Shown: positions 1,006-44,634, counted from the first letter of the stretch. The stretch is 64,000 nt of DNA from a virus (IMGVR_UViG_3300030419_006251:128001-192000), one strand, 5' to 3'. Numbers and translations are program-made. The notes: generated from the sequence alone by a model not told the origin.

Positions 1006-4000
1006 TTAGCCACTATTATATGCCGCTTTTTCAGCATCGGCGCCCATATCATCGTCGCATTCGGGTCCTTCTAACTGCCTATTGACAAAAAACTTAGGAT
1101 TCCAATCAAAGAAAGGAGGCAAATTAACCTTAAATTTAAACTTAGGAAGAGAGAACTTACCATTTACTTTATTATCCCAATCATAGGCGTGCATAAAAAA
1201 GTCTCTTAGTAGCTCTTTAGTTTCTCCAAAGGGCGGGGCTTTGCCGTATTTATCCCAGTTTCTGTAACTCTTCTTTTTCTGTTGACCTTTAAACCAAAGC
1301 AGCCAATCGCCGGTTTCGAGGCCTGGGCCGGCGCTATGTTGTATATTTCTCATAAATTGGCCGATTCGAGAACCATCGTAAGGATCACCGGGGCCATCGC
1401 CCGGGGCGTTTTCAGGACTAACCTCTTGATACCACCCATCGTCCATTCCAATAGAATCTAAGAAACAGTGCATCATATAGATTGTTGGTAATGACAAAAA
1501 TCTATCTAATGCGAATACATATTCAAATAATGTTCTGAACTCTGTGTCGCTTATAAATTGGTCCAGCATACATTCAAAGTCATAATCTTCTACGATATCA
1601 AAATTATTAATTTTAAGATCTCCAGGAATTTCAATTTCTGTCGATGCTATGGGAATTAAATTAACCGGATCTCCTCCCAAATATTCAATATTAAATGCTT
1701 TATTTTTTAATGATATATCGCTAGAAACTTGGCCGCACAACTGTTGAATATCGGAAGTTCCGTGAAAACTAGGGACATAAGATAATCTAAGGCCATATGA
1801 CCACTTCTCAAATAAGTCAGAAATTTTATAACTGTCTTCTTCATCTCCCTCTTCGGTCGTAGATGTGTAAGTAAAATTATTGTTTTCGGAAAGATAAGTT
1901 TTCCACTCCTCCATATTAACAATTTTAAATAGGTGCTCTGAGCGCGAGCCGGTGTCTAAATCAATAGCGGCTTCAGAAGAATCTTCATAATCTTCAATTT
2001 TTATATATTTTTCAACCACAAATCCTCCGTTTTGTAAATATGCAAAGTTGCCAGAATAATAGCCTTCGCCGCCAAAACGATCTTCCTGCAAATCAACTGC
2101 GACATCTGTCACATAAGCTCCGATAGGTCCTTCTGATAAGTTTAATCCTCCTTGCAGAAAGTGTAGCTGTAAGTTATCAATTTCGGAGCATGCCCAATTT
2201 GCAAATTTTCCCGAACCTTCTTCGAATTCATGTCTGAAAAGTTCTTTTGCTACAGTGGTCATGTATGGTTCGCTATTCTCCCACACCTTTCTTCTCCGAG
2301 CTTTGCGTTTTCTATGAAACCAGTCGGCTTGTGGCTGGTTATATAGTTTAGTATTAATTTCATCAATTTTCTCAACCGCCATAAGAGCTTCTGCTGAACC
2401 TGACATATTTCCAGCCGAAACCTGTCTAGCATACATTGCGCAGCATTGTTCTAAAAATTTATAATCATAGCGATTGTGACCTTTACTTATTCTTCCAAGC
2501 GAGCCAAATATTTTGCTTCTTCTAGAATATTGAAATAAAGATTCTCTTAGATTTGCAAATATATATGCTGCTAATAAGTCTCCAAAACAGCCGGTCGAAG
2601 GATTAAACTTCATAAATGCCGGAACGGCACAAATCATTTTTTCGAATATCGTTGTACGCATTGTGGCCTTAATATAACCCTCTATCTTTGCTTTTGATTC
2701 TCGATCATTAACTCGATCAAACGGAGGATCCCAAACACAACTTGGATCAGAAGACACGCGATCATCAGAATCAATGTTGTCCATTGCTTTCGAGATGTGT
2801 TCTGCTACACCGCTCCAATTAAAGATATCGGCACTTACCTGCTCTTCGCAAGGATTCGCGGGGCCGGGCAAATATTCGTCTGCTATTCTTGCCCAACCTT
2901 TTTGATATTGTTGGTGTACATAGTAAGCCCCTACTCCATACTCTTCTTCTGGCAAATCAACGATCTCTGACAGGCCCTCACTTCCCGGTACCGGGACGGG
3001 CCGGTACCACCCAGTATCCTCATTATTATTTGGATGGTATGGAAATTCTTTGCGGTTTTTCTTCCGGGTACTTCGAGGAAGCGGAATTTCTTTCTTATCT
3101 TCATCATCTCCCTTGAATTTAGATATACCAGCATCCAAACACTCTTCTTCAGAAAGTTCTTTTAAATAAAAATTTAACAGGCCGCTGTCCCACGCATCGT
3201 CATCATCTGAGATTTGCGCAGCATATTCTTCGACAAAACTTTCACATAAGCCTGAGTAATCTTGTCCGTAAAGCTTCTGCCACACTGATTCTAAATTGCT
3301 TTGTTCCGCTTCTTCTCCAGATTCAACAATTGCAGATTCAATAACATTGGTGATGTGTGTTGCCCATATAGTAGGCTTTTGCTGTCTATTAGCCACATCT
3401 AATTCCATCGAAGATATGTGGTCTAATATGTCTGAGTCTAAAGCGCGGACGACTCTGATTATTGGATCCAGCGCGGATTTGGAGCGACTTGAGTTTGGCG
3501 CGCCGTTTGATAGCGGACCGAATCCTTTGAAAAAAGAATCAAAATTTCCTCTCCGATCTTTATCAAACTGCATTGTATATTCTCCGACTGAGCTGGCCGC
3601 CTGACTACTTCTGCTGACTCCAATTGCGTTTGGCACTAGTCTGAAAATATGAAGCTTTCCAACATCCTTAGTTAATTCTTCTTCGTCATAAAGCGCTGTG
3701 TCAGTATATCCCTCGGGTATAAAGTCTAATTCATTTCTTTCTTCATTCCAAAAATGAAAATGATATGCTGGCTGGCCAGCCTCCTTGTGTGAGTTAGCAC
3801 CCATAGATGGATCCGTACCCATAAATTGCATCCTAGCATGCGGTTCTGGATAATAGTGGAACTTCTCTTTTCCTATTTTATATTTGCGATATATAACATA
3901 TCTGGGATCATATTCATATTCTACTCCCCAATCAGTAGCAATTCTTTTATAAGCTTCATTAACTTCCCAAACATCATAAGCTGTTGATTCATCCTTATCG

Positions 4001-39533: not shown

Positions 39534-39869
39534 TGGTGGAGACGGCGGGAGTCGAACCCGCGTCCACAATAAGTCCAATTGTAGTCATTCACAAGTTTAG
39601 TCAGTTTCTATCAGTTACTGACAAAGGTAGATGGCGTTTAGATACCGCTTACCATCCTATTGCGATAAATTTGTTGATTTTTACAACTTATCTGTTGTTT
39701 TTGCTCAAATTGGATAGAAGGCTTTGAGCGGCCTCCCGATTAAGCCGCTAAGCGAACAGAATCGAAGTGATTGTTGTTATTTGCAACTATTGTTTTTGAA
39801 CTGTCAAGGTCGTATCTAACCTACTTGCACTATTCTTTTTTCTTACTCTGTCGAAGCCGTTTCGTCCCC
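39534..39869 (-). ncRNA. ssrA: tmRNA, tag ANNNNHFDSVRLAA*
   Basis: 5' GGGGACG pairs with 3' CGTCTCC-ACCA (G3:U wobble); T-loop GGTTCGACTCC. Tag ORF 39784-39740 is preceded by ATAGTT and ends in LAA-TAA. Confidence 0.95.
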
Positions 39870-40076: not shown

Positions 40077-40736
40077 TTAATAACCGTTAACTAAAGATTC
40101 AATCCAATTGCGTATCATGGATTCACTCCATCCATTTATACCGTATCTGAGTACCATGTTTTGATCAATTACAACTAAAGTAGGCCAGGAACTTATTGGA
40201 TATCCTGTTTGTGCTGTTGAATCTATCATTGTACGATCGCCAGCAAGTACTGGGGTATTAATACCATATGTTGTAACCCAATACTGTAGATCTGTCAAAT
40301 CAGGCGCCTCACCGGTGGCATCATCAATTAACACCGTTATCCAAATAAGGTTCTCGGCGCCATAGTCATTTACCAGCTCATCTCCTTTAGAGGCGATATT
40401 ATTACATACTCCACACCACATAGCCGATAAATCTAAAATAATCACCTTTTCATGAAAATCATATAGTTCAACCATTTCACCATTTTGGTCCATTAGTTCA
40501 AAATTGCACGGATGGTTGCCAGGGATTTGGCTACATGTGTCCCAAGTAATCCATGCATCTTCGGCTGGTTCTTCTTCAACAACTTCCGGGGGTGAAGTAT
40601 CTGCTTCTGCGGGATCCGCTTCTAATTCTGGTGCACATGCTGTATTACAGCCAACTACTAGTAATATAATTGCCATACATGTTAGCCACATTGTTGCCGC
40701 CGCCGCGGCTTTTATTAATATATTTTTTGTATTCAT
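40077..40736 (-). CDS. TlpA/redoxin-family thioredoxin-fold lipoprotein
   Basis: Signal peptide with lipobox-like LLVVGC; LDLSAMWCGVC (CxxC); WPTLVVID. Confidence 0.82.
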   Translation of the reverse strand: MNTKNILIKAAAAATMWLTCMAIILLVVGCNTACAPELEADPAEADTSPPEVVEEEPAEDAWITWDTCSQIPGNHPCNFELMDQNGEMVELYDFHEKVIILDLSAMWCGVCNNIASKGDELVNDYGAENLIWITVLIDDATGEAPDLTDLQYWVTTYGINTPVLAGDRTMIDSTAQTGYPISSWPTLVVIDQNMVLRYGINGWSESMIRNWIESLVNGY

Positions 40737-40753: not shown

Positions 40754-40884
40754 GCCCATAGTGGGTGTATTACTCGCTCCAACACCATACTATCCCCTCT
40801 TTAATTTACCTTTTTAAAGCTCACCTCCCTAAAGGTCCGGCTCGTTAGAGGCATAGAACCGCAACTACCATTTGCACTATGGAC
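40754..40884 (-). ncRNA. Candidate structured RNA A (131 nt, multibranch with pseudoknot)
   Basis: Closing stem GTCCATAGTG/CACTATGGGC and internal stems CGGTTC/GAGCCG, ACCTTT/AAAGGT, GGTGT/ACACC. Two G:U pairs favour the minus strand. Confidence 0.6.
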
Positions 40885-41249
40885 TATTTTATTTTTAAAT
40901 CAGTAAAATATTCCTCAGTCTCATATTTTTTCTGCAATAAGTAAAGTGTTTTAAGATCGATTCCTAGAAACAATGCTGCTTCTTTTTTTGTACTGCATGC
41001 ACTTAAAGCATACTTAAAAGTTGCATCTTTAGCAATGTCTGTTAAAGAATTCCACAAAGGAATTCCGTATAATTTACCACCAGCTGCCTTGGCTGCTAGT
41101 TCTAATTTGAGACCTATAATTTCTTCTAAGCTCAAATTATTAAGCATAATTTCAAATTCAGTATTACTTTTTTTTGATTTCCTAAGCTTCGAAGCTATAC
41201 TATAGTTTGTATTAGCTCCTTTTCTTTTATTTTTTCTTTTAAAGCTCAT
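40884..41249 (-). CDS. Hypothetical protein with Fis-like HTH C-terminus
   Basis: TKKEAALFLGIDLKTLY. Confidence 0.55.
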   Translation of the reverse strand: MSFKRKNKRKGANTNYSIASKLRKSKKSNTEFEIMLNNLSLEEIIGLKLELAAKAAGGKLYGIPLWNSLTDIAKDATFKYALSACSTKKEAALFLGIDLKTLYLLQKKYETEEYFTDLKIK

Positions 41250-42243: not shown

Positions 42244-44634
42244 TTATCTAGCAATCGTTTGTAAAAAATAATTTAATATTTCCTCAGTCAAGTCTTCTCT
42301 AAAAATTGTAGGCTCTTCGTCTTCGTCGTCCTCATCTCGCTTAGCAGAACCTACATAACCTTGAACAGCTCCTCCGCCAGCAGATGATATCTCATTTACA
42401 GCATCTGCTTGACCTTGTTGAAATTCTTTGTTTTTCTTTTCTTTTGCCTCTGCTTCCATAGCTTGTGCTAATTGTTTTTGAAACTGACCTAATGGTTCCA
42501 TAGTTCTAGCGGTAGCTTGTTGAGCGACTCCTCCTACAATTTCTCCGGTCTGTCCGGTAAGATTGTCAACAAATCCTCTTCCCATATCAGAAAACATTGG
42601 CGCTAATTGATCCATCAACTCTTTTGGTATATTACTCAATCCGCCTTCAATATTTTGTAAGATTTCCGGAAATTGCCCGGCCACATTACCTGCAGGACTT
42701 CGAGGATCTCCAAGTGCTTCTACAACCATCTCATATAAAGTATCAGAATTTCTTCTACCCGGGGCTTGAGACACACCTAGTGTTTGTAATATTTTATTAA
42801 CACTTCCGTAGCTTTTTTCCGGAATAAATTTGGTGATGTCCAACCCTTGTTCTATAGCTTCTCTAAAAGTGGTGGCACTCATTGGCTTTTGTGTATCAGG
42901 ATCTATAATGTTTGGAACTGGATCTACTTCCAAATCAACGCCTTCGGGCTTATATTGTTCAGCTTGACCTCTAAAGCGATTTCCATCCTTGGCTCCAGCT
43001 ACCATATTAACCCTTTGTCCGGGTTTTGCATTTTGTAAAATATCATATGCAATGTGCATAGGGTTTCCGCCCGGCGGTGCTTGCAAAATATAAAAATTCA
43101 CTCCGGCATCATTAGCATAAATTTCCCATATTTTCGCAGCAGTATCAAAGTCAATAGGTACATCGTTTATACTTCGCGGCCTAGTTTTTGCTGCGCCACC
43201 CATAATAACAATTGGGAACTCAACTTCGGAAGCCATTGTTTCGGCAGCTTGGAAATGTCCTTTATGTGGAGGCTTAAATCCTCCGGGAAACACACCAATT
43301 GATTCATAACCAGATAAAAGTTCGTACAGATCTGCTGGAGATGGCGAATCAACCATTTTAACGCCCTCAGACAGCTGCTGACTGCCTTGTGACATAATTG
43401 CCGGGGCTGTACCCCGACCATACTTGAAGAGGCCTAGAAGCTGGTTTATGGGCGCAAAATTGCCTGTGAACTTATACATTTGATCGCCTAGTTGAAATAC
43501 AAATCCTTCGACTGTTGTATTAATATTATCGTGGCTCTTGAGTTTTTTAAGTTGTTTCTTTAATACTTCATGTGCCTCTTCTGCGCCGGGCCCGCCATAT
43601 CTAGAAATTTGTTCTATTGCATTTTGAACCTCTTTTCTTAATCTTTGCAATTCGGCTTTGTTATCTAAAATATATGCACTTTCCATTCCCTTGAGCATCT
43701 CTACGGAAAAATCGTGAATTGCATCTTCGATTGGAAATATAATTTTACTTAGTATTTTTGATCCGTCCTTGATTATATCGCGAATCGAAGTTTTTTCTTC
43801 GTCTCTCATTCCTTGATAAATCAATCTTAAATTTTTTGCTCCCGGAAGATTTAAGATTTTATCTTTTATATCTTTTTGGGTCTGCGCGCCAAAATAAGAC
43901 ATTTCGCTTCTTAAAAATTCTTCTAATCCTTTCTCTAAATAATTTCCGATAGTCATTGAACCGGAAAAGCCAGCATCTTTTAATTTTTCAATTGCCTCTT
44001 CATACGGCCTATCATCACTTAAGGCCTGTAATTGCATCACCGCAGTTCGTCTAACAGAAAAATCTGTACCACTGCCAGACTCTTCAAATCGATTTAAAAG
44101 TGCGTCTAACATTCTAGAATTTTGTTCTGCGTCAACTACTTCTACTTTATTTGTATCTGGTATATATCTTTTGTGGCCACCGTGATGAATCGATAGTACA
44201 TTTGCATCATAATTAACAACATTAGAAGCCCCTGGTCCTTGAATTTCTGTGTTATAAAATATTTCGCCATTTTGACCAAAAACAGCTGCTTGTTCTTCTG
44301 GCCTCATTGAATCGATCGCCTTTTGAAAAGAACGAAAAGCTCGAAGATAAACATCCTTAATTGCATCTCCGCCGGCGAACTGCCTCATTTTTAAATCGCG
44401 AATTGTCCGACCGCCGGCAGCCATATCACCTTTATTTCTAGCATATAGAGCTAATCCTCCACGAGAGCCGAGATAAATATTGAAACCATCAGTTTTTTCA
44501 GTACCTACCAACTTACCGCCAGCAGCTTTTCTCAAAATAGAGCTAATTTCATTAAATGTTAATTCTCTATTATCATACAAGTGAGATAAGTGGCCGGCCA
44601 CGCCGCCCTCTAATAACAAATAAAGCTTTTTCAT
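42244..44634 (-). CDS. RNA-ligase-like (KxDG) domain fused to an HxGH nucleotidyltransferase
   Basis: EKTDG (motif I), NTEI, VEGFVF (IV), MYKF (V); then PGGFKPPHKGH and MSATTFRE. Confidence 0.7.
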   Translation of the reverse strand: MKKLYLLLEGGVAGHLSHLYDNRELTFNEISSILRKAAGGKLVGTEKTDGFNIYLGSRGGLALYARNKGDMAAGGRTIRDLKMRQFAGGDAIKDVYLRAFRSFQKAIDSMRPEEQAAVFGQNGEIFYNTEIQGPGASNVVNYDANVLSIHHGGHKRYIPDTNKVEVVDAEQNSRMLDALLNRFEESGSGTDFSVRRTAVMQLQALSDDRPYEEAIEKLKDAGFSGSMTIGNYLEKGLEEFLRSEMSYFGAQTQKDIKDKILNLPGAKNLRLIYQGMRDEEKTSIRDIIKDGSKILSKIIFPIEDAIHDFSVEMLKGMESAYILDNKAELQRLRKEVQNAIEQISRYGGPGAEEAHEVLKKQLKKLKSHDNINTTVEGFVFQLGDQMYKFTGNFAPINQLLGLFKYGRGTAPAIMSQGSQQLSEGVKMVDSPSPADLYELLSGYESIGVFPGGFKPPHKGHFQAAETMASEVEFPIVIMGGAAKTRPRSINDVPIDFDTAAKIWEIYANDAGVNFYILQAPPGGNPMHIAYDILQNAKPGQRVNMVAGAKDGNRFRGQAEQYKPEGVDLEVDPVPNIIDPDTQKPMSATTFREAIEQGLDITKFIPEKSYGSVNKILQTLGVSQAPGRRNSDTLYEMVVEALGDPRSPAGNVAGQFPEILQNIEGGLSNIPKELMDQLAPMFSDMGRGFVDNLTGQTGEIVGGVAQQATARTMEPLGQFQKQLAQAMEAEAKEKKNKEFQQGQADAVNEISSAGGGAVQGYVGSAKRDEDDEDEEPTIFREDLTEEILNYFLQTIAR

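What the first reader, a model, noticed from the sequence alone, without database searches (positions are those of the whole stretch)
40754..40884. Structured RNA A: 131-nt four-way junction with a pseudoknot
Seen (minus strand): P1 GTCCATAGTG/CACTATGGGC (10 bp), P2 CGGTTC/GAGCCG with loop TATGCCTCTAAC, P3 ACCTTT/AAAGGT, P4 GGTGT/ACACC. Loop CCTCT (40847-40851) pairs with AGAGG (40796-40800), which follows an AATTAA linker. G:U pairs in P1 and P2 occur only on the minus strand. It fills the gap between an HTH gene stop and the redoxin RBS. Inference: a discrete ncRNA, ribozyme or riboswitch-like leader.
Basis: partly seen in the sequence, partly recalled or inferred. Interest (0 to 1): 0.62.

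Follow-up and report, generated by a model that had tools for sequence, protein, structure and literature searches.

The report
New pseudoknotted small RNA of marine phages
This 131-base stretch encodes a real, strongly conserved folded RNA of a family not in the RNA-family database, found once per genome in many uncultured marine T4-type phages, most often just in front of the phage's ribosome-rescue RNA (tmRNA); what it does is still unknown.

Summary

A single-sequence fold is unremarkable (z = -0.95). Comparative evidence is strong. A covariance model finds the motif:
- once in this 200.8-kb phage genome;
- in about 19 IMG/VR viral contigs;
- in 65 of 80 marine metagenome loci seeded with a 21-nt loop pattern;
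- in none of 19 prokaryote-genome hits to the same pattern.

Over 60 distinct sequences, 95.6% of cells pair and 23 of 28 pairs show double changes. One pseudoknot pair takes all four Watson-Crick forms.

P3 is optional, so the core is a three-way junction with an H-type pseudoknot. No Rfam family matches. T4 rnaC/rnaD and permuted tmRNA were tested and rejected.

Typical context: a near-consensus sigma-70-type promoter, then the motif, then a U-rich tract, then tmRNA 5-61 nt downstream (39 of 74 contexts) or unrelated genes. The window copy lacks the promoter and the U tract. It sits between a Fis-like HTH gene and a redoxin gene.

Best reading (about 0.42): a discrete, stable small RNA that acts in trans. 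Rivals are a conditional terminator or riboswitch-like leader, and a ribozyme.

The parts
40754..40884 (-). The whole structured RNA motif (131 nt): P1-J1/2-P2-P3-J3/4-P4-P1'
   Evidence: Covariance-model match of 95.6 bits, E 1e-22, and the only copy in the 200,760-bp genome. Family covariation.
40875..40884 (-). P1 5' strand (GUCCAUAGUG). Its first base is the G of the HTH gene's stop codon.
   Evidence: Pairs with 40754-40763. All 10 P1 pairs show double changes across the family, each with 4-6 pair types.
40862..40874 (-). J1/2, a variable A/U-rich linker (13 nt here, 11-36 nt in the family)
   Evidence: Lengths from alignment A10.
40838..40861 (-). P2 hairpin (CGGUUC/GAGCCG) with the 12-nt loop UAUGCCUCUAAC. 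This is the most conserved part of the family (..UC-AWUGNCUCUNNY-GA..).
   Evidence: P2 is 99% paired, and 3 of its 5 modelled pairs show double changes.
40847..40852 (-). Pseudoknot 5' strand (GCCUCU) in the P2 loop
   Evidence: RNAalifold picks this helix on its own.
40808..40836 (-). P3, an optional variable hairpin (ACCUUU/AAAGGU plus an inner GGGA/UUUA-type extension)
   Evidence: Compensatory U-A to A-U change against L023. In the family this segment is 1-53 nt and is absent in 7 of 60 sequences.
40787..40807 (-). J3/4 linker AAAUUAAAGAGGGGAUAGUAU, purine-rich and conserved (ARUURAA-RGAGNC-UAGYNU)
40793..40798 (-). Pseudoknot 3' strand in the family register (AGGGGA; 5 of 6 pairs here).
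   Evidence: In one search, pair 79/178 takes the forms AU 23, UG 14, GC 13, CG 6.
40764..40786 (-). P4 hairpin (GGUGU/ACACC) with the conserved loop UGGAGCGAGUAAU (family core YGA(A)RRA)
   Evidence: All 5 pairs show double changes and 96% of cells are paired.
40754..40763 (-). P1 3' strand (CACUAUGGGC)
40884..41249 (-). Upstream gene: a 121-aa Fis-type HTH-like protein (C-terminus ..KKEAALFLGIDLKTLYLLQKKY..). This is the usual upstream neighbour of the motif in related phages.
   Evidence: (weak HTH_29 match).
40077..40736 (-). Downstream gene: a 219-aa AhpC/TSA-thioredoxin-fold protein with a lipoprotein-like signal. It lies between the motif and tmRNA only here and in L023.
39534..39869 (-). 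Phage one-piece tmRNA (tag ANNNNHFDSVRLAA). In most relatives it starts 5-61 nt after the motif; here it is 884 nt downstream.

Best explanation
The locus encodes a member of a new family of compact small RNAs (109-154 nt) of uncultured marine T4-type phages.

Fold (shown): a closing helix P1, a hairpin P2 whose loop forms a 6-bp H-type pseudoknot with the linker before hairpin P4, and an optional hairpin P3.

Expression (inferred): in most phages it is its own small expression unit. A near-consensus sigma-70-type (early-type) promoter lies 6-96 nt upstream and a U-rich tract follows P1 directly. Often the tmRNA gene follows with no room for a promoter of its own. I therefore infer that the motif and tmRNA are made as one precursor. 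Host RNase P, cutting at the tmRNA 5' end, or termination at P1 plus the U tract, would release the motif as a stable RNA. In this window the promoter and U tract are missing. The RNA would be transcribed with the HTH-like and redoxin genes and either cut out or act within that transcript.

Function (inferred): it acts in trans through its conserved single-stranded loops (L2, J3/4, L4). These would bind a protein or ribosome-linked partner during early infection, much as the orphan stable RNAs rnaC and rnaD of the T4 tRNA cluster are thought to be processed. The partner is unknown.
For: - Real RNA on this strand: 95.6% of cells paired, 23 of 28 pairs with double changes, and G-U pairs only on this strand. 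RNAalifold recovers P1, the pseudoknot and P4 unaided.
- Single copy per genome.
- Phage-specific as far as tested: 65 of 80 marine metagenome pattern hits carry the full motif, against none of 19 prokaryote-genome hits.
- Own promoter: a match of at least 11/12 to TTGACA-17-TATAAT within 125 nt upstream in 35 of 58 contexts, against 0.5% of shuffles.
- U-rich tract directly after P1 in 40 of 57 contexts, against a 12% background.
- Downstream genes are unrelated to each other: tmRNA, tRNA-Gly, redoxin, tubulin-like, cytidylyltransferase, SH3-like mini-genes. This argues against a gene-specific leader.
- The location moves between genomes. In G004 and G006 it sits inside mini-gene arrays, 42-44 kb from the HTH gene or tmRNA. 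In these mini-gene-array loci, L030 and L031 have the next promoter after the U tract.
- tmRNA starts 5-61 nt after P1 in 33 contexts, plus 6 cut by a contig end, with no room for a promoter. In the motif-less relative L007 the same promoter sits directly before tmRNA.
- The window and L023 copies keep the fold through compensatory changes although they lack the promoter and U tract.
Against: - There are no expression data. No RNA run was listed for this stretch, so the transcript ends, stability and processing are all inferred.
- Promoter, structured RNA, U tract, gene is also the layout of a transcription attenuator or riboswitch.
- A real terminator between the promoter and tmRNA would silence tmRNA. 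The U tract must therefore be leaky, regulated, or not a terminator.
- Highly conserved junction and loop bases plus a pseudoknot are more typical of ligand-binding or catalytic RNAs than of ordinary base-pairing sRNAs.
- No partner protein or target is identified.
- The promoter and U-tract scans are consensus matches, not evidence of function.
Confidence: 0.42

Rival explanations
1. Cis-acting promoter-proximal control element: a riboswitch-like or factor-dependent attenuator, or an antiterminator. The folded domain closes P1 directly in front of the U tract. A ligand, a protein, or a ribosome on the short leader ORF would then decide whether RNA polymerase stops there or reads on into tmRNA or the next early gene. 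Where a Shine-Dalgarno sequence follows P1 within a few bases, as in the window, it could instead modulate translation initiation.
For: - The order promoter, motif, U-rich tract, gene is seen in most contexts.
- tmRNA has no promoter of its own after the motif, so its synthesis depends on passing P1 and the U tract.
- The aptamer-like anatomy is there: a closing P1, a multi-stem junction, a pseudoknot, an optional variable stem and invariant loop bases.
- ORF starts lie only 3-27 nt after P1 in many loci.
- SD-plus-mini-ORF leaders lie between promoter and motif in 17 of 57 contexts.
- Precedent: a glutamine riboswitch reported next to the tmRNA of marine Melnitz-like phages (PMC9004378).
Against: - Downstream genes share no function.
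- No conserved alternative (anti-P1) pairing or separate expression platform was seen.
- The window and L023 copies lack the U tract, and the redoxin SD is not sequestered by the fold.
- In mini-gene-array loci the next gene has its own promoter after the U tract.
- P1 closing a roughly 100-nt multiloop is an untypical terminator hairpin.
Confidence: 0.27
2. A new class of self-cleaving ribozyme, or a dedicated RNase processing module. It would cut the early transcript next to the motif and so separate the upstream mRNA or leader from tmRNA, a tRNA or the next cistron.
For: - The placement is gene-agnostic and intergenic, and the motif is directly 5' of tRNA-like genes: tmRNA at 5-61 nt, and tRNA-Gly at 7 nt in L144.
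- The core is compact, pseudoknotted and highly conserved, with variable peripheral stems.
- From my own knowledge, not tested here: HDV-like 'theta' ribozymes sit next to tRNAs in gut phages.
Against: - No match to any Rfam ribozyme family, even at E <= 10 on 401 nt and E <= 1 on nine loci.
- The topology differs from pistol, where the closing-helix 5' strand lies after the pseudoknot hairpin rather than before it. It also differs from HDV.
- No circularly permuted variants were seen.
- RNase P alone suffices to mature the tmRNA 5' end.
- No invariant candidate cleavage dinucleotide was identified.
Confidence: 0.12
3. A passive structural element: a bulky terminator or 3'/5' stabiliser that protects neighbouring transcripts from exonucleases or marks cassette borders in the hyperplastic regions of T4-type genomes. 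It would have no specific partner.
For: A U-rich tract follows P1 in 40 of 57 contexts.
Against: A simple hairpin would do that job. Here unpaired loop and linker bases and a 6-bp pseudoknot are conserved across sequences whose helices have diverged completely. There is only one copy per genome, whereas cassette border elements recur many times.
Confidence: 0.1
4. Not a functional RNA: chance complementarity, a DNA-level site, or a short protein-coding region.
For: The single-sequence folding energy is not better than shuffles. A 14-codon ORF (AUG at 40786-40788) can be read inside the window copy (direct reading).
Against: There is massive strand-specific covariation. The internal ORF is not conserved: its frame and start are lost in L006 and in the L002-type (GACUCU-loop) sequences (direct reading).
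Confidence: 0.01

Closest known systems
T4 small stable RNAs rnaC (species 1) and rnaD (species 2) in the tRNA gene cluster
   Same: These are orphan structured RNAs of about 120-140 nt in a T4-type phage. They lie among tRNA-type genes on the same strand, are presumably released from a shared precursor by host RNases, and have no known function (annotation).
   Different: There is no sequence or structure homology: model R2 scores at most 8 bits, and never on rnaC or rnaD. rnaC carries a tRNA-like T arm (direct reading), which this motif lacks. This motif has an H-type pseudoknot and usually its own promoter.
SAM-I riboswitch (Rfam RF00162), for architecture only
   Same: Both have a four-helix layout with P1 closing the junction and a pseudoknot between the P2 loop and the J3/4 linker. 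The SAM-I side of this comparison is from my own knowledge.
   Different: No cmscan hit. P3, which is part of the SAM pocket, is dispensable here. J1/2 is long and variable. There is no link to sulfur-metabolism genes. It is not a member.
Glutamine riboswitch (glnA RNA) reported beside the tmRNA gene of marine Melnitz-like and pelagimyophages (PMC9004378)
   Same: Both are structured, pseudoknot-forming RNAs placed next to a phage tmRNA gene in marine T4-like phages.
   Different: No Rfam glnA or Downstream-peptide hit here. The size and fold differ. The tmRNA here is one-piece, and the motif lies 5' of it.
Pistol self-cleaving ribozyme (Rfam RF02679)
   Same: In both, a hairpin loop forms a 6-bp pseudoknot with a downstream linker, which is followed by a second hairpin, and a helix closes the whole. 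The pistol side of this comparison is from my own knowledge.
   Different: The strand order differs: here the closing helix encloses the pseudoknot hairpin. There is no cmscan hit. The motif is about twice as long. Cleavage was not tested.
Unnamed candidate structured RNAs mined from IMG/VR (Fremin and Bhatt 2023, PMC10690425)
   Same: That study used the same data source (IMG/VR intergenic regions) and the same covariation-based approach. It lists 8,495 DNA-virus candidates.
   Different: I could not check whether this motif is among them, because no supplementary files are held. The main text mentions no tmRNA-linked motif.

Membership tests
Any Rfam 15 family | cmscan match at the gathering score or at a permissive E-value | tested here: not met
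   Whole window at gathering score: only tmRNA and tRNAs. On 401 nt at E <= 10: only two chance-level hits outside the motif or on the other strand. Nine related loci at E <= 1: nothing on the motif.
Permuted (two-piece) tmRNA, RF04321 | The motif aligns to the acceptor piece of the model | tested here: not met
   The RF04321 hits in L002, L005, L006 and L011 come from the 5' half of the adjacent one-piece tmRNA. The alignment treats the motif as an insertion.
T4 rnaC/rnaD stable RNAs | Sequence and structure similarity to the T4 genes | tested here: not met
   R2 run with filters off on the T4 tRNA region gave a best score of 8.2 bits, with no hit on rnaC or rnaD.
T4 rnaC/rnaD stable RNAs | Location among tRNA-type genes of a T4-type phage, on the same strand | tested here: met
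   In the window, the tmRNA and tRNA cluster lies 0.9-2.5 kb downstream on the same strand. In 39 of 74 contexts a tmRNA is directly adjacent (33 mapped, 6 cut by a contig end), and in one more a tRNA-Gly follows.
SAM-I riboswitch | Four-way junction with an L2-J3/4 pseudoknot | tested here: met
   This is architecture only.
SAM-I riboswitch | Conserved SAM-pocket sequence (Rfam model), an obligatory P3, and sulfur-metabolism genes downstream | tested here: not met
   No RF00162 hit. P3 is absent in 7 of 60 sequences. Downstream genes are unrelated.
Known self-cleaving ribozyme classes (hammerhead, twister, twister-sister, pistol, hatchet, HDV-like, hairpin) | Match to the class consensus (Rfam models) | tested here: not met
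Self-cleaving ribozyme (any class, including a new one) | Site-specific self-cleavage | not testable with these tools
   Needs an in vitro transcription and cleavage assay.
Riboswitch (any class) | Consistent placement upstream of functionally related genes | tested here: not met
   Downstream genes include tmRNA, tRNA-Gly, redoxin, a tubulin-like protein, a cytidylyltransferase and SH3-like mini-genes.
Riboswitch (any class) | Ligand binding with a structural switch | not testable with these tools
   Needs in-line probing or termination assays.
Rho-independent terminator | A stem directly followed by a U-rich tract | tested here: inconclusive
   In the family, 40 of 57 contexts have at least 5 U in 8 nt within 0-2 nt of P1, against a 12% background. 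In the window copy the tail is UCAAAAUUAAGG, with no U tract, and no terminator-like site was called there.
Stand-alone sRNA gene | Own promoter upstream | tested here: inconclusive
   In the family, 35 of 58 contexts have a match of at least 11/12 to the sigma-70 consensus. In the window there is none on the minus strand between 40737 and 41700. These are consensus scans only.

The most novel reading that the evidence does not exclude
The motif is a new class of ligand- or ribosome-sensing attenuator, or a new self-cleaving ribozyme class. Marine T4-type phages would place it between an early promoter and their own tmRNA gene, so that synthesis or release of the phage ribosome-rescue RNA depends on a signal read by the pseudoknotted domain. 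In many loci this domain sits together with a two- to eight-codon 'minigene' leader.
Probability: 0.3. Interest if true: 0.85.

Novelty: new variant of a known kind. Interest (0 to 1): 0.66.

Why it matters
Phage-encoded tmRNAs are known but poorly understood. Here a second, strongly conserved structured RNA is physically coupled to them in many abundant ocean phages, which gives a concrete handle on how these phages manage host translation early in infection.

The family has a well-defined fold with a proven pseudoknot, dozens of natural variants and no homologue in Rfam. It is ready for Rfam submission and for bench tests of cleavage, ligand binding, termination and partner pull-down.

If it proves to be a regulatory or catalytic RNA, it would add a new class found only in viruses so far. 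If it is a protein-binding decoy, it may point to a new host-takeover or anti-defence mechanism.

Tried and rejected
- **Rfam.** Whole window at gathering score, 401 nt at E <= 10, and nine related loci at E <= 1: no family matches the motif.
- **tmRNA_permuted (RF04321).** The hits next to the motif come from the neighbouring tmRNA 5' half.
- **wcaG.** A sub-threshold hit (30 bits) lies inside the L006 tmRNA, not in the motif.
- **T4 rnaC/rnaD.** Fetched and searched with R2: no match.
- **Cultured phages (INPHARED).** blastn of 2.8 kb and tblastn of the HTH protein gave no match. The 796-aa neighbour gave only distant hits, at most 28% identity.
- **PHROGs.** Nothing for the HTH-like protein, the redoxin, or the 80-aa and 302-aa neighbours.
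- **Prokaryote genomes.** The 19 hits to the loop pattern equal the number expected by chance. None carries the J3/4 partner or the rest of the motif.
- **Sequencing runs.** No RNA holder was listed.
- **Earlier notes of this scan.** No look-alike by sequence.
- **Fremin and Bhatt supplement.** Not held.
- **Literature searches** on tmRNA, phage and structured RNA gave no description of this motif.
- **Coding reading.** The 14-codon ORF inside the window copy is not conserved (direct reading).
- **Weak hits.** L037, L047 and L051 lack the pseudoknot partner or lie inside an ORF, and were left out of the alignments.
- **MAFFT alone** misaligned P1 and L006, so alignments were made with the covariance models.

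Full report
**1. The observation**

The window is part of a 200,760-bp virus record. Earlier notes of this scan call it an uncultured marine T4-type phage.
- P1, 10 bp with one U-G
- P2, 6 bp with one U-G and a 12-nt loop
- P3, 6 bp
- P4, 5 bp
- loop bases CCUCU complementary to AGAGG in the P3-P4 linker

The stop codon of a 121-aa ORF overlaps the first base of P1. The ATG of a 219-aa AhpC/TSA-thioredoxin-fold ORF lies 17 nt after P1.

A single-sequence fold is not remarkable. The MFE is -36.3 kcal/mol, z = -0.95, and it keeps only P1 and P3. The proposed nested fold scores -28.6 to -32.5 kcal/mol, and the pseudoknot adds about -5.5. Energy alone therefore neither supports nor rejects the model. 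Rfam has no match at gathering score or at E <= 10.

**2. Homologues and covariation**

Relatives of the upstream protein in IMG/VR gave 22 loci, and relatives of the redoxin gave 2. L023, the nearest relative, has the RNA at 80% identity. It shows compensatory changes in P1, P3 and P4. By eye, the same motif sits after the HTH gene in L001, L002, L003, L005, L006 and L011/12. Their P1 sequences are entirely different but remain complementary.

I built a two-sequence model (R1) and then an 11-sequence model (R2). R2 finds:
- one copy in the window's own genome;
- about 19 distinct IMG/VR contigs, including ones seeded by loop patterns;
- one copy each in five further records searched whole, and a copy elsewhere in the genome of L007, whose HTH-tmRNA junction lacks it;
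- 65 of 80 marine metagenome loci that contain a 21-nt P2-loop pattern.

The same pattern hit 19 prokaryote-genome contigs, which is the number expected by chance. None has the rest of the motif.

On the 78-row alignment (60 distinct sequences):
- 95.6% of cells form standard pairs, against 68.8% in shuffles and 39-55% in slid controls.
- 23 of 28 pairs change on both sides.
- Every P1 and P4 pair has double changes (smaller set).

The alignment was fitted to the model, which favours the structure. However, RNAalifold run freely on it returns P1, P4 and the pseudoknot helix.

**3. The pseudoknot**

Across the family, the six loop bases after UC+3 nt pair with the six bases just before U[AG][AG] in J3/4. 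These loop/partner pairs are seen:

| L2 loop | J3/4 partner |
|---|---|
| GUCUCU | AGAGGC |
| GACUCU | GGAGUC |
| GCCUCU | GGAGGC |
| GGCUCU | GGAGCC |
| GUCUAU | AUAGGC |
| GAUUCU | GGAAUC |
| GACAAU | GUUGUC |

The second pair occurs as A-U (23), U-G (14), G-C (13) and C-G (6). The pseudoknot is therefore real.

In the window the purine run allows two registers:
- the family's, 40847-40852 with 40793-40798, five pairs including one wobble.

**4. Anatomy of the family**

- Length is 109-154 nt.
- J1/2 is 11-36 nt, A/U-rich and variable.
- P3 ranges from absent (8 nt or shorter in 7 of 60) to 53 nt. It forms a hairpin of at least 4 bp in 48 of 60.

The conserved core is therefore a three-way junction, P1/P2/P4, with an H-type pseudoknot. 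The 'four-way junction' of the window is the common, but not obligatory, form.

The best-conserved bases are unpaired: the L2 flanks (AWU...NNY), J3/4 (ARUURAA...UAGYNU) and the L4 core (YGA(A)RRA). A further P4 variant exists in L124, L126, L130, L135 and L138.

**5. Genomic context**

There are 74 distinct contexts.
- In 33 a tmRNA gene starts 5-61 nt after P1 on the same strand. In 6 more a tmRNA start is cut by the contig end.
- In L144 a tRNA-Gly starts 7 nt after P1.
- Elsewhere the next genes are unrelated to one another: this window's redoxin, a tubulin-like protein, a 217-aa unknown, an HxGH cytidylyltransferase, and SH3-like mini-genes.

Upstream, 35 of 58 contexts have a match of at least 11/12 to TTGACA-17-TATAAT within 125 nt, against 0.5% of shuffles. 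The -10 box ends 6-96 nt before P1. Downstream, 40 of 57 contexts have a U-rich tract directly after P1, against a 12% background.

In motif-less relatives such as L007, the same promoter sits directly before tmRNA. The motif therefore looks like an insertion between an early-type promoter and tmRNA.

Complete genomes show that the two RNAs are not obligately linked:
- G006 has both, 42 kb apart.
- G001 (95% complete by CheckV) has tmRNA but no motif.
- G002 has neither.

The window and L023 are atypical. They have no promoter-like site and no U tract, and a redoxin gene lies between the motif and tmRNA. Even so, the fold is maintained by compensatory changes between them.

**6. What it most likely is**

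Shown:
- a strand-specific, conserved, pseudoknotted RNA fold;
- one copy per genome;
- so far only in viral or marine metagenome DNA;
- usually flanked by a strong promoter-like site and a U tract;
- preferentially 5' of tmRNA.

Inferred: it is transcribed early, together with tmRNA where adjacent, because there is no room for a second promoter. It would be released as a stable small RNA by RNase P cutting at the tmRNA 5' end, or by termination at P1 plus the U tract. It would then act in trans through its conserved loops. This is my preferred reading (0.42). The reasons are that downstream genes are functionally unrelated, the element moves between genomic sites as a self-contained cassette, and the window and L023 copies persist without the promoter or U tract.

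The main rival (0.27) is a promoter-proximal attenuator or riboswitch-like switch in which P1 plus the U tract is a conditional terminator. The layout fits. tmRNA expression must pass through it. A glutamine riboswitch next to phage tmRNA has been reported in Melnitz-like phages (PMC9004378).

A new ribozyme or processing module (0.12) and a passive stabiliser or terminator (0.10) remain possible. Nothing here tests catalysis or ligand binding.

**7. Comparison with known RNAs**

- No Rfam family matches.
- T4 rnaC/rnaD are the closest in kind: orphan stable RNAs in a T4-type tRNA cluster. They are not homologous.
- SAM-I shares the L2-J3/4 pseudoknot architecture, but its defining features are not met.
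- Pistol has a similar pseudoknot-plus-hairpin arrangement but a different strand topology.
- The RF04321 hits are artefacts of the neighbouring tmRNA.
- The motif may be among the 8,495 unnamed IMG/VR candidates of PMC10690425. I could not check this.

**8. Verdict**

The interpretation, a discrete structured RNA, is supported. The family is new to Rfam, and its function is unresolved. It is moderately to highly interesting because of its strong structure, its abundance in ocean phages and its coupling to phage tmRNA.

Noticed in passing
L006, L084, L110, L108, L128, L122, L026, L035, L050, L031, L121 and others: 14-74 nt upstream of the motif: Between the promoter and the motif, 17 of 57 contexts carry a strong Shine-Dalgarno sequence (mostly GGAGG) followed by an ATG mini-ORF of 2-8 codons (4.8% in shuffles). 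Examples are MTFL*, MK*, MI*, MM*, MQ*, MYT* and MLVI*. MTFL* is kept through synonymous TTT/TTC and TAA/TGA changes. From my own knowledge, these resemble the two-codon 'bar' minigenes of phage lambda. Their position in front of a tmRNA gene is striking.
   Followed up: partly
L014:3384-3470, L016 and L015 about 3370-3455, L018 about 3380-3465 (after the HTH gene): In place of a full tmRNA, these phages have an RNA of about 85 nt. It looks like the tRNA-like domain of tmRNA alone (GGGGGUGG...UUCGAC...GGUUCGA(C/U)UCCGUGCACCUCCACCA), with no tag-coding part or pseudoknots.
   Followed up: no
L006:3598-3616 and the same place in about 25 loci (between the motif and tmRNA): The 19-26-nt spacer between P1 and the tmRNA 5' end carries a conserved word, (U)GUUCUUUAAAA. 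It persists across sequence classes whose P1 helices have fully diverged. Its role is not known; it could be an RNase P leader or an RNase E site.
   Followed up: no
L006:3440-3483, L084, L110, L122, L128, L108, L100, L089 (just 5' of P1): In GUCUCU-loop (L006-type) loci, a further small hairpin preceded by AAGGGG and followed by UAGCU lies directly upstream of P1. It covaries between loci (CUGGU/ACCAG, ACUGG/CCAGU, GUUGUU/AACGG). The window copy has coding sequence there instead.
   Followed up: no
L144:490-611, then a tRNA-Gly 7 nt downstream: One metagenome contig has the motif directly in front of a tRNA-Gly gene rather than tmRNA, after GUUUUUU.
   Followed up: no
L050 (G004:31644-31762), L030, L031, L035, L111, L151: In a second group of phages the motif sits inside arrays of SH3-like mini-genes (M[KE]VGDLV... 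...EVIS).
   Followed up: partly
L006:3785-3881: A sub-threshold match to the marine-phage wcaG RNA motif (30.3 bits against a gathering score of 42) falls inside the pseudoknot region of the phage tmRNA.
   Followed up: no
window 40786-40788 (AUG) to about 40742: Inside the window copy, an AUG 6 nt after the purine run AGAGGGG opens a 14-codon frame, MVLERVIHPLWAQN*. The frame is not conserved in other family members.
   Followed up: yes
window 42244-44634 (-): The N-terminal half of the 796-aa protein is distantly similar (26% identity, E 1e-33) to a 'cytidylyltransferase like protein' of Microcystis phage Mel-JY01. Its residues 439-606 are similar to the NMN adenylyltransferase of Flavobacterium phages (28% identity, E 1e-6).
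   Followed up: no
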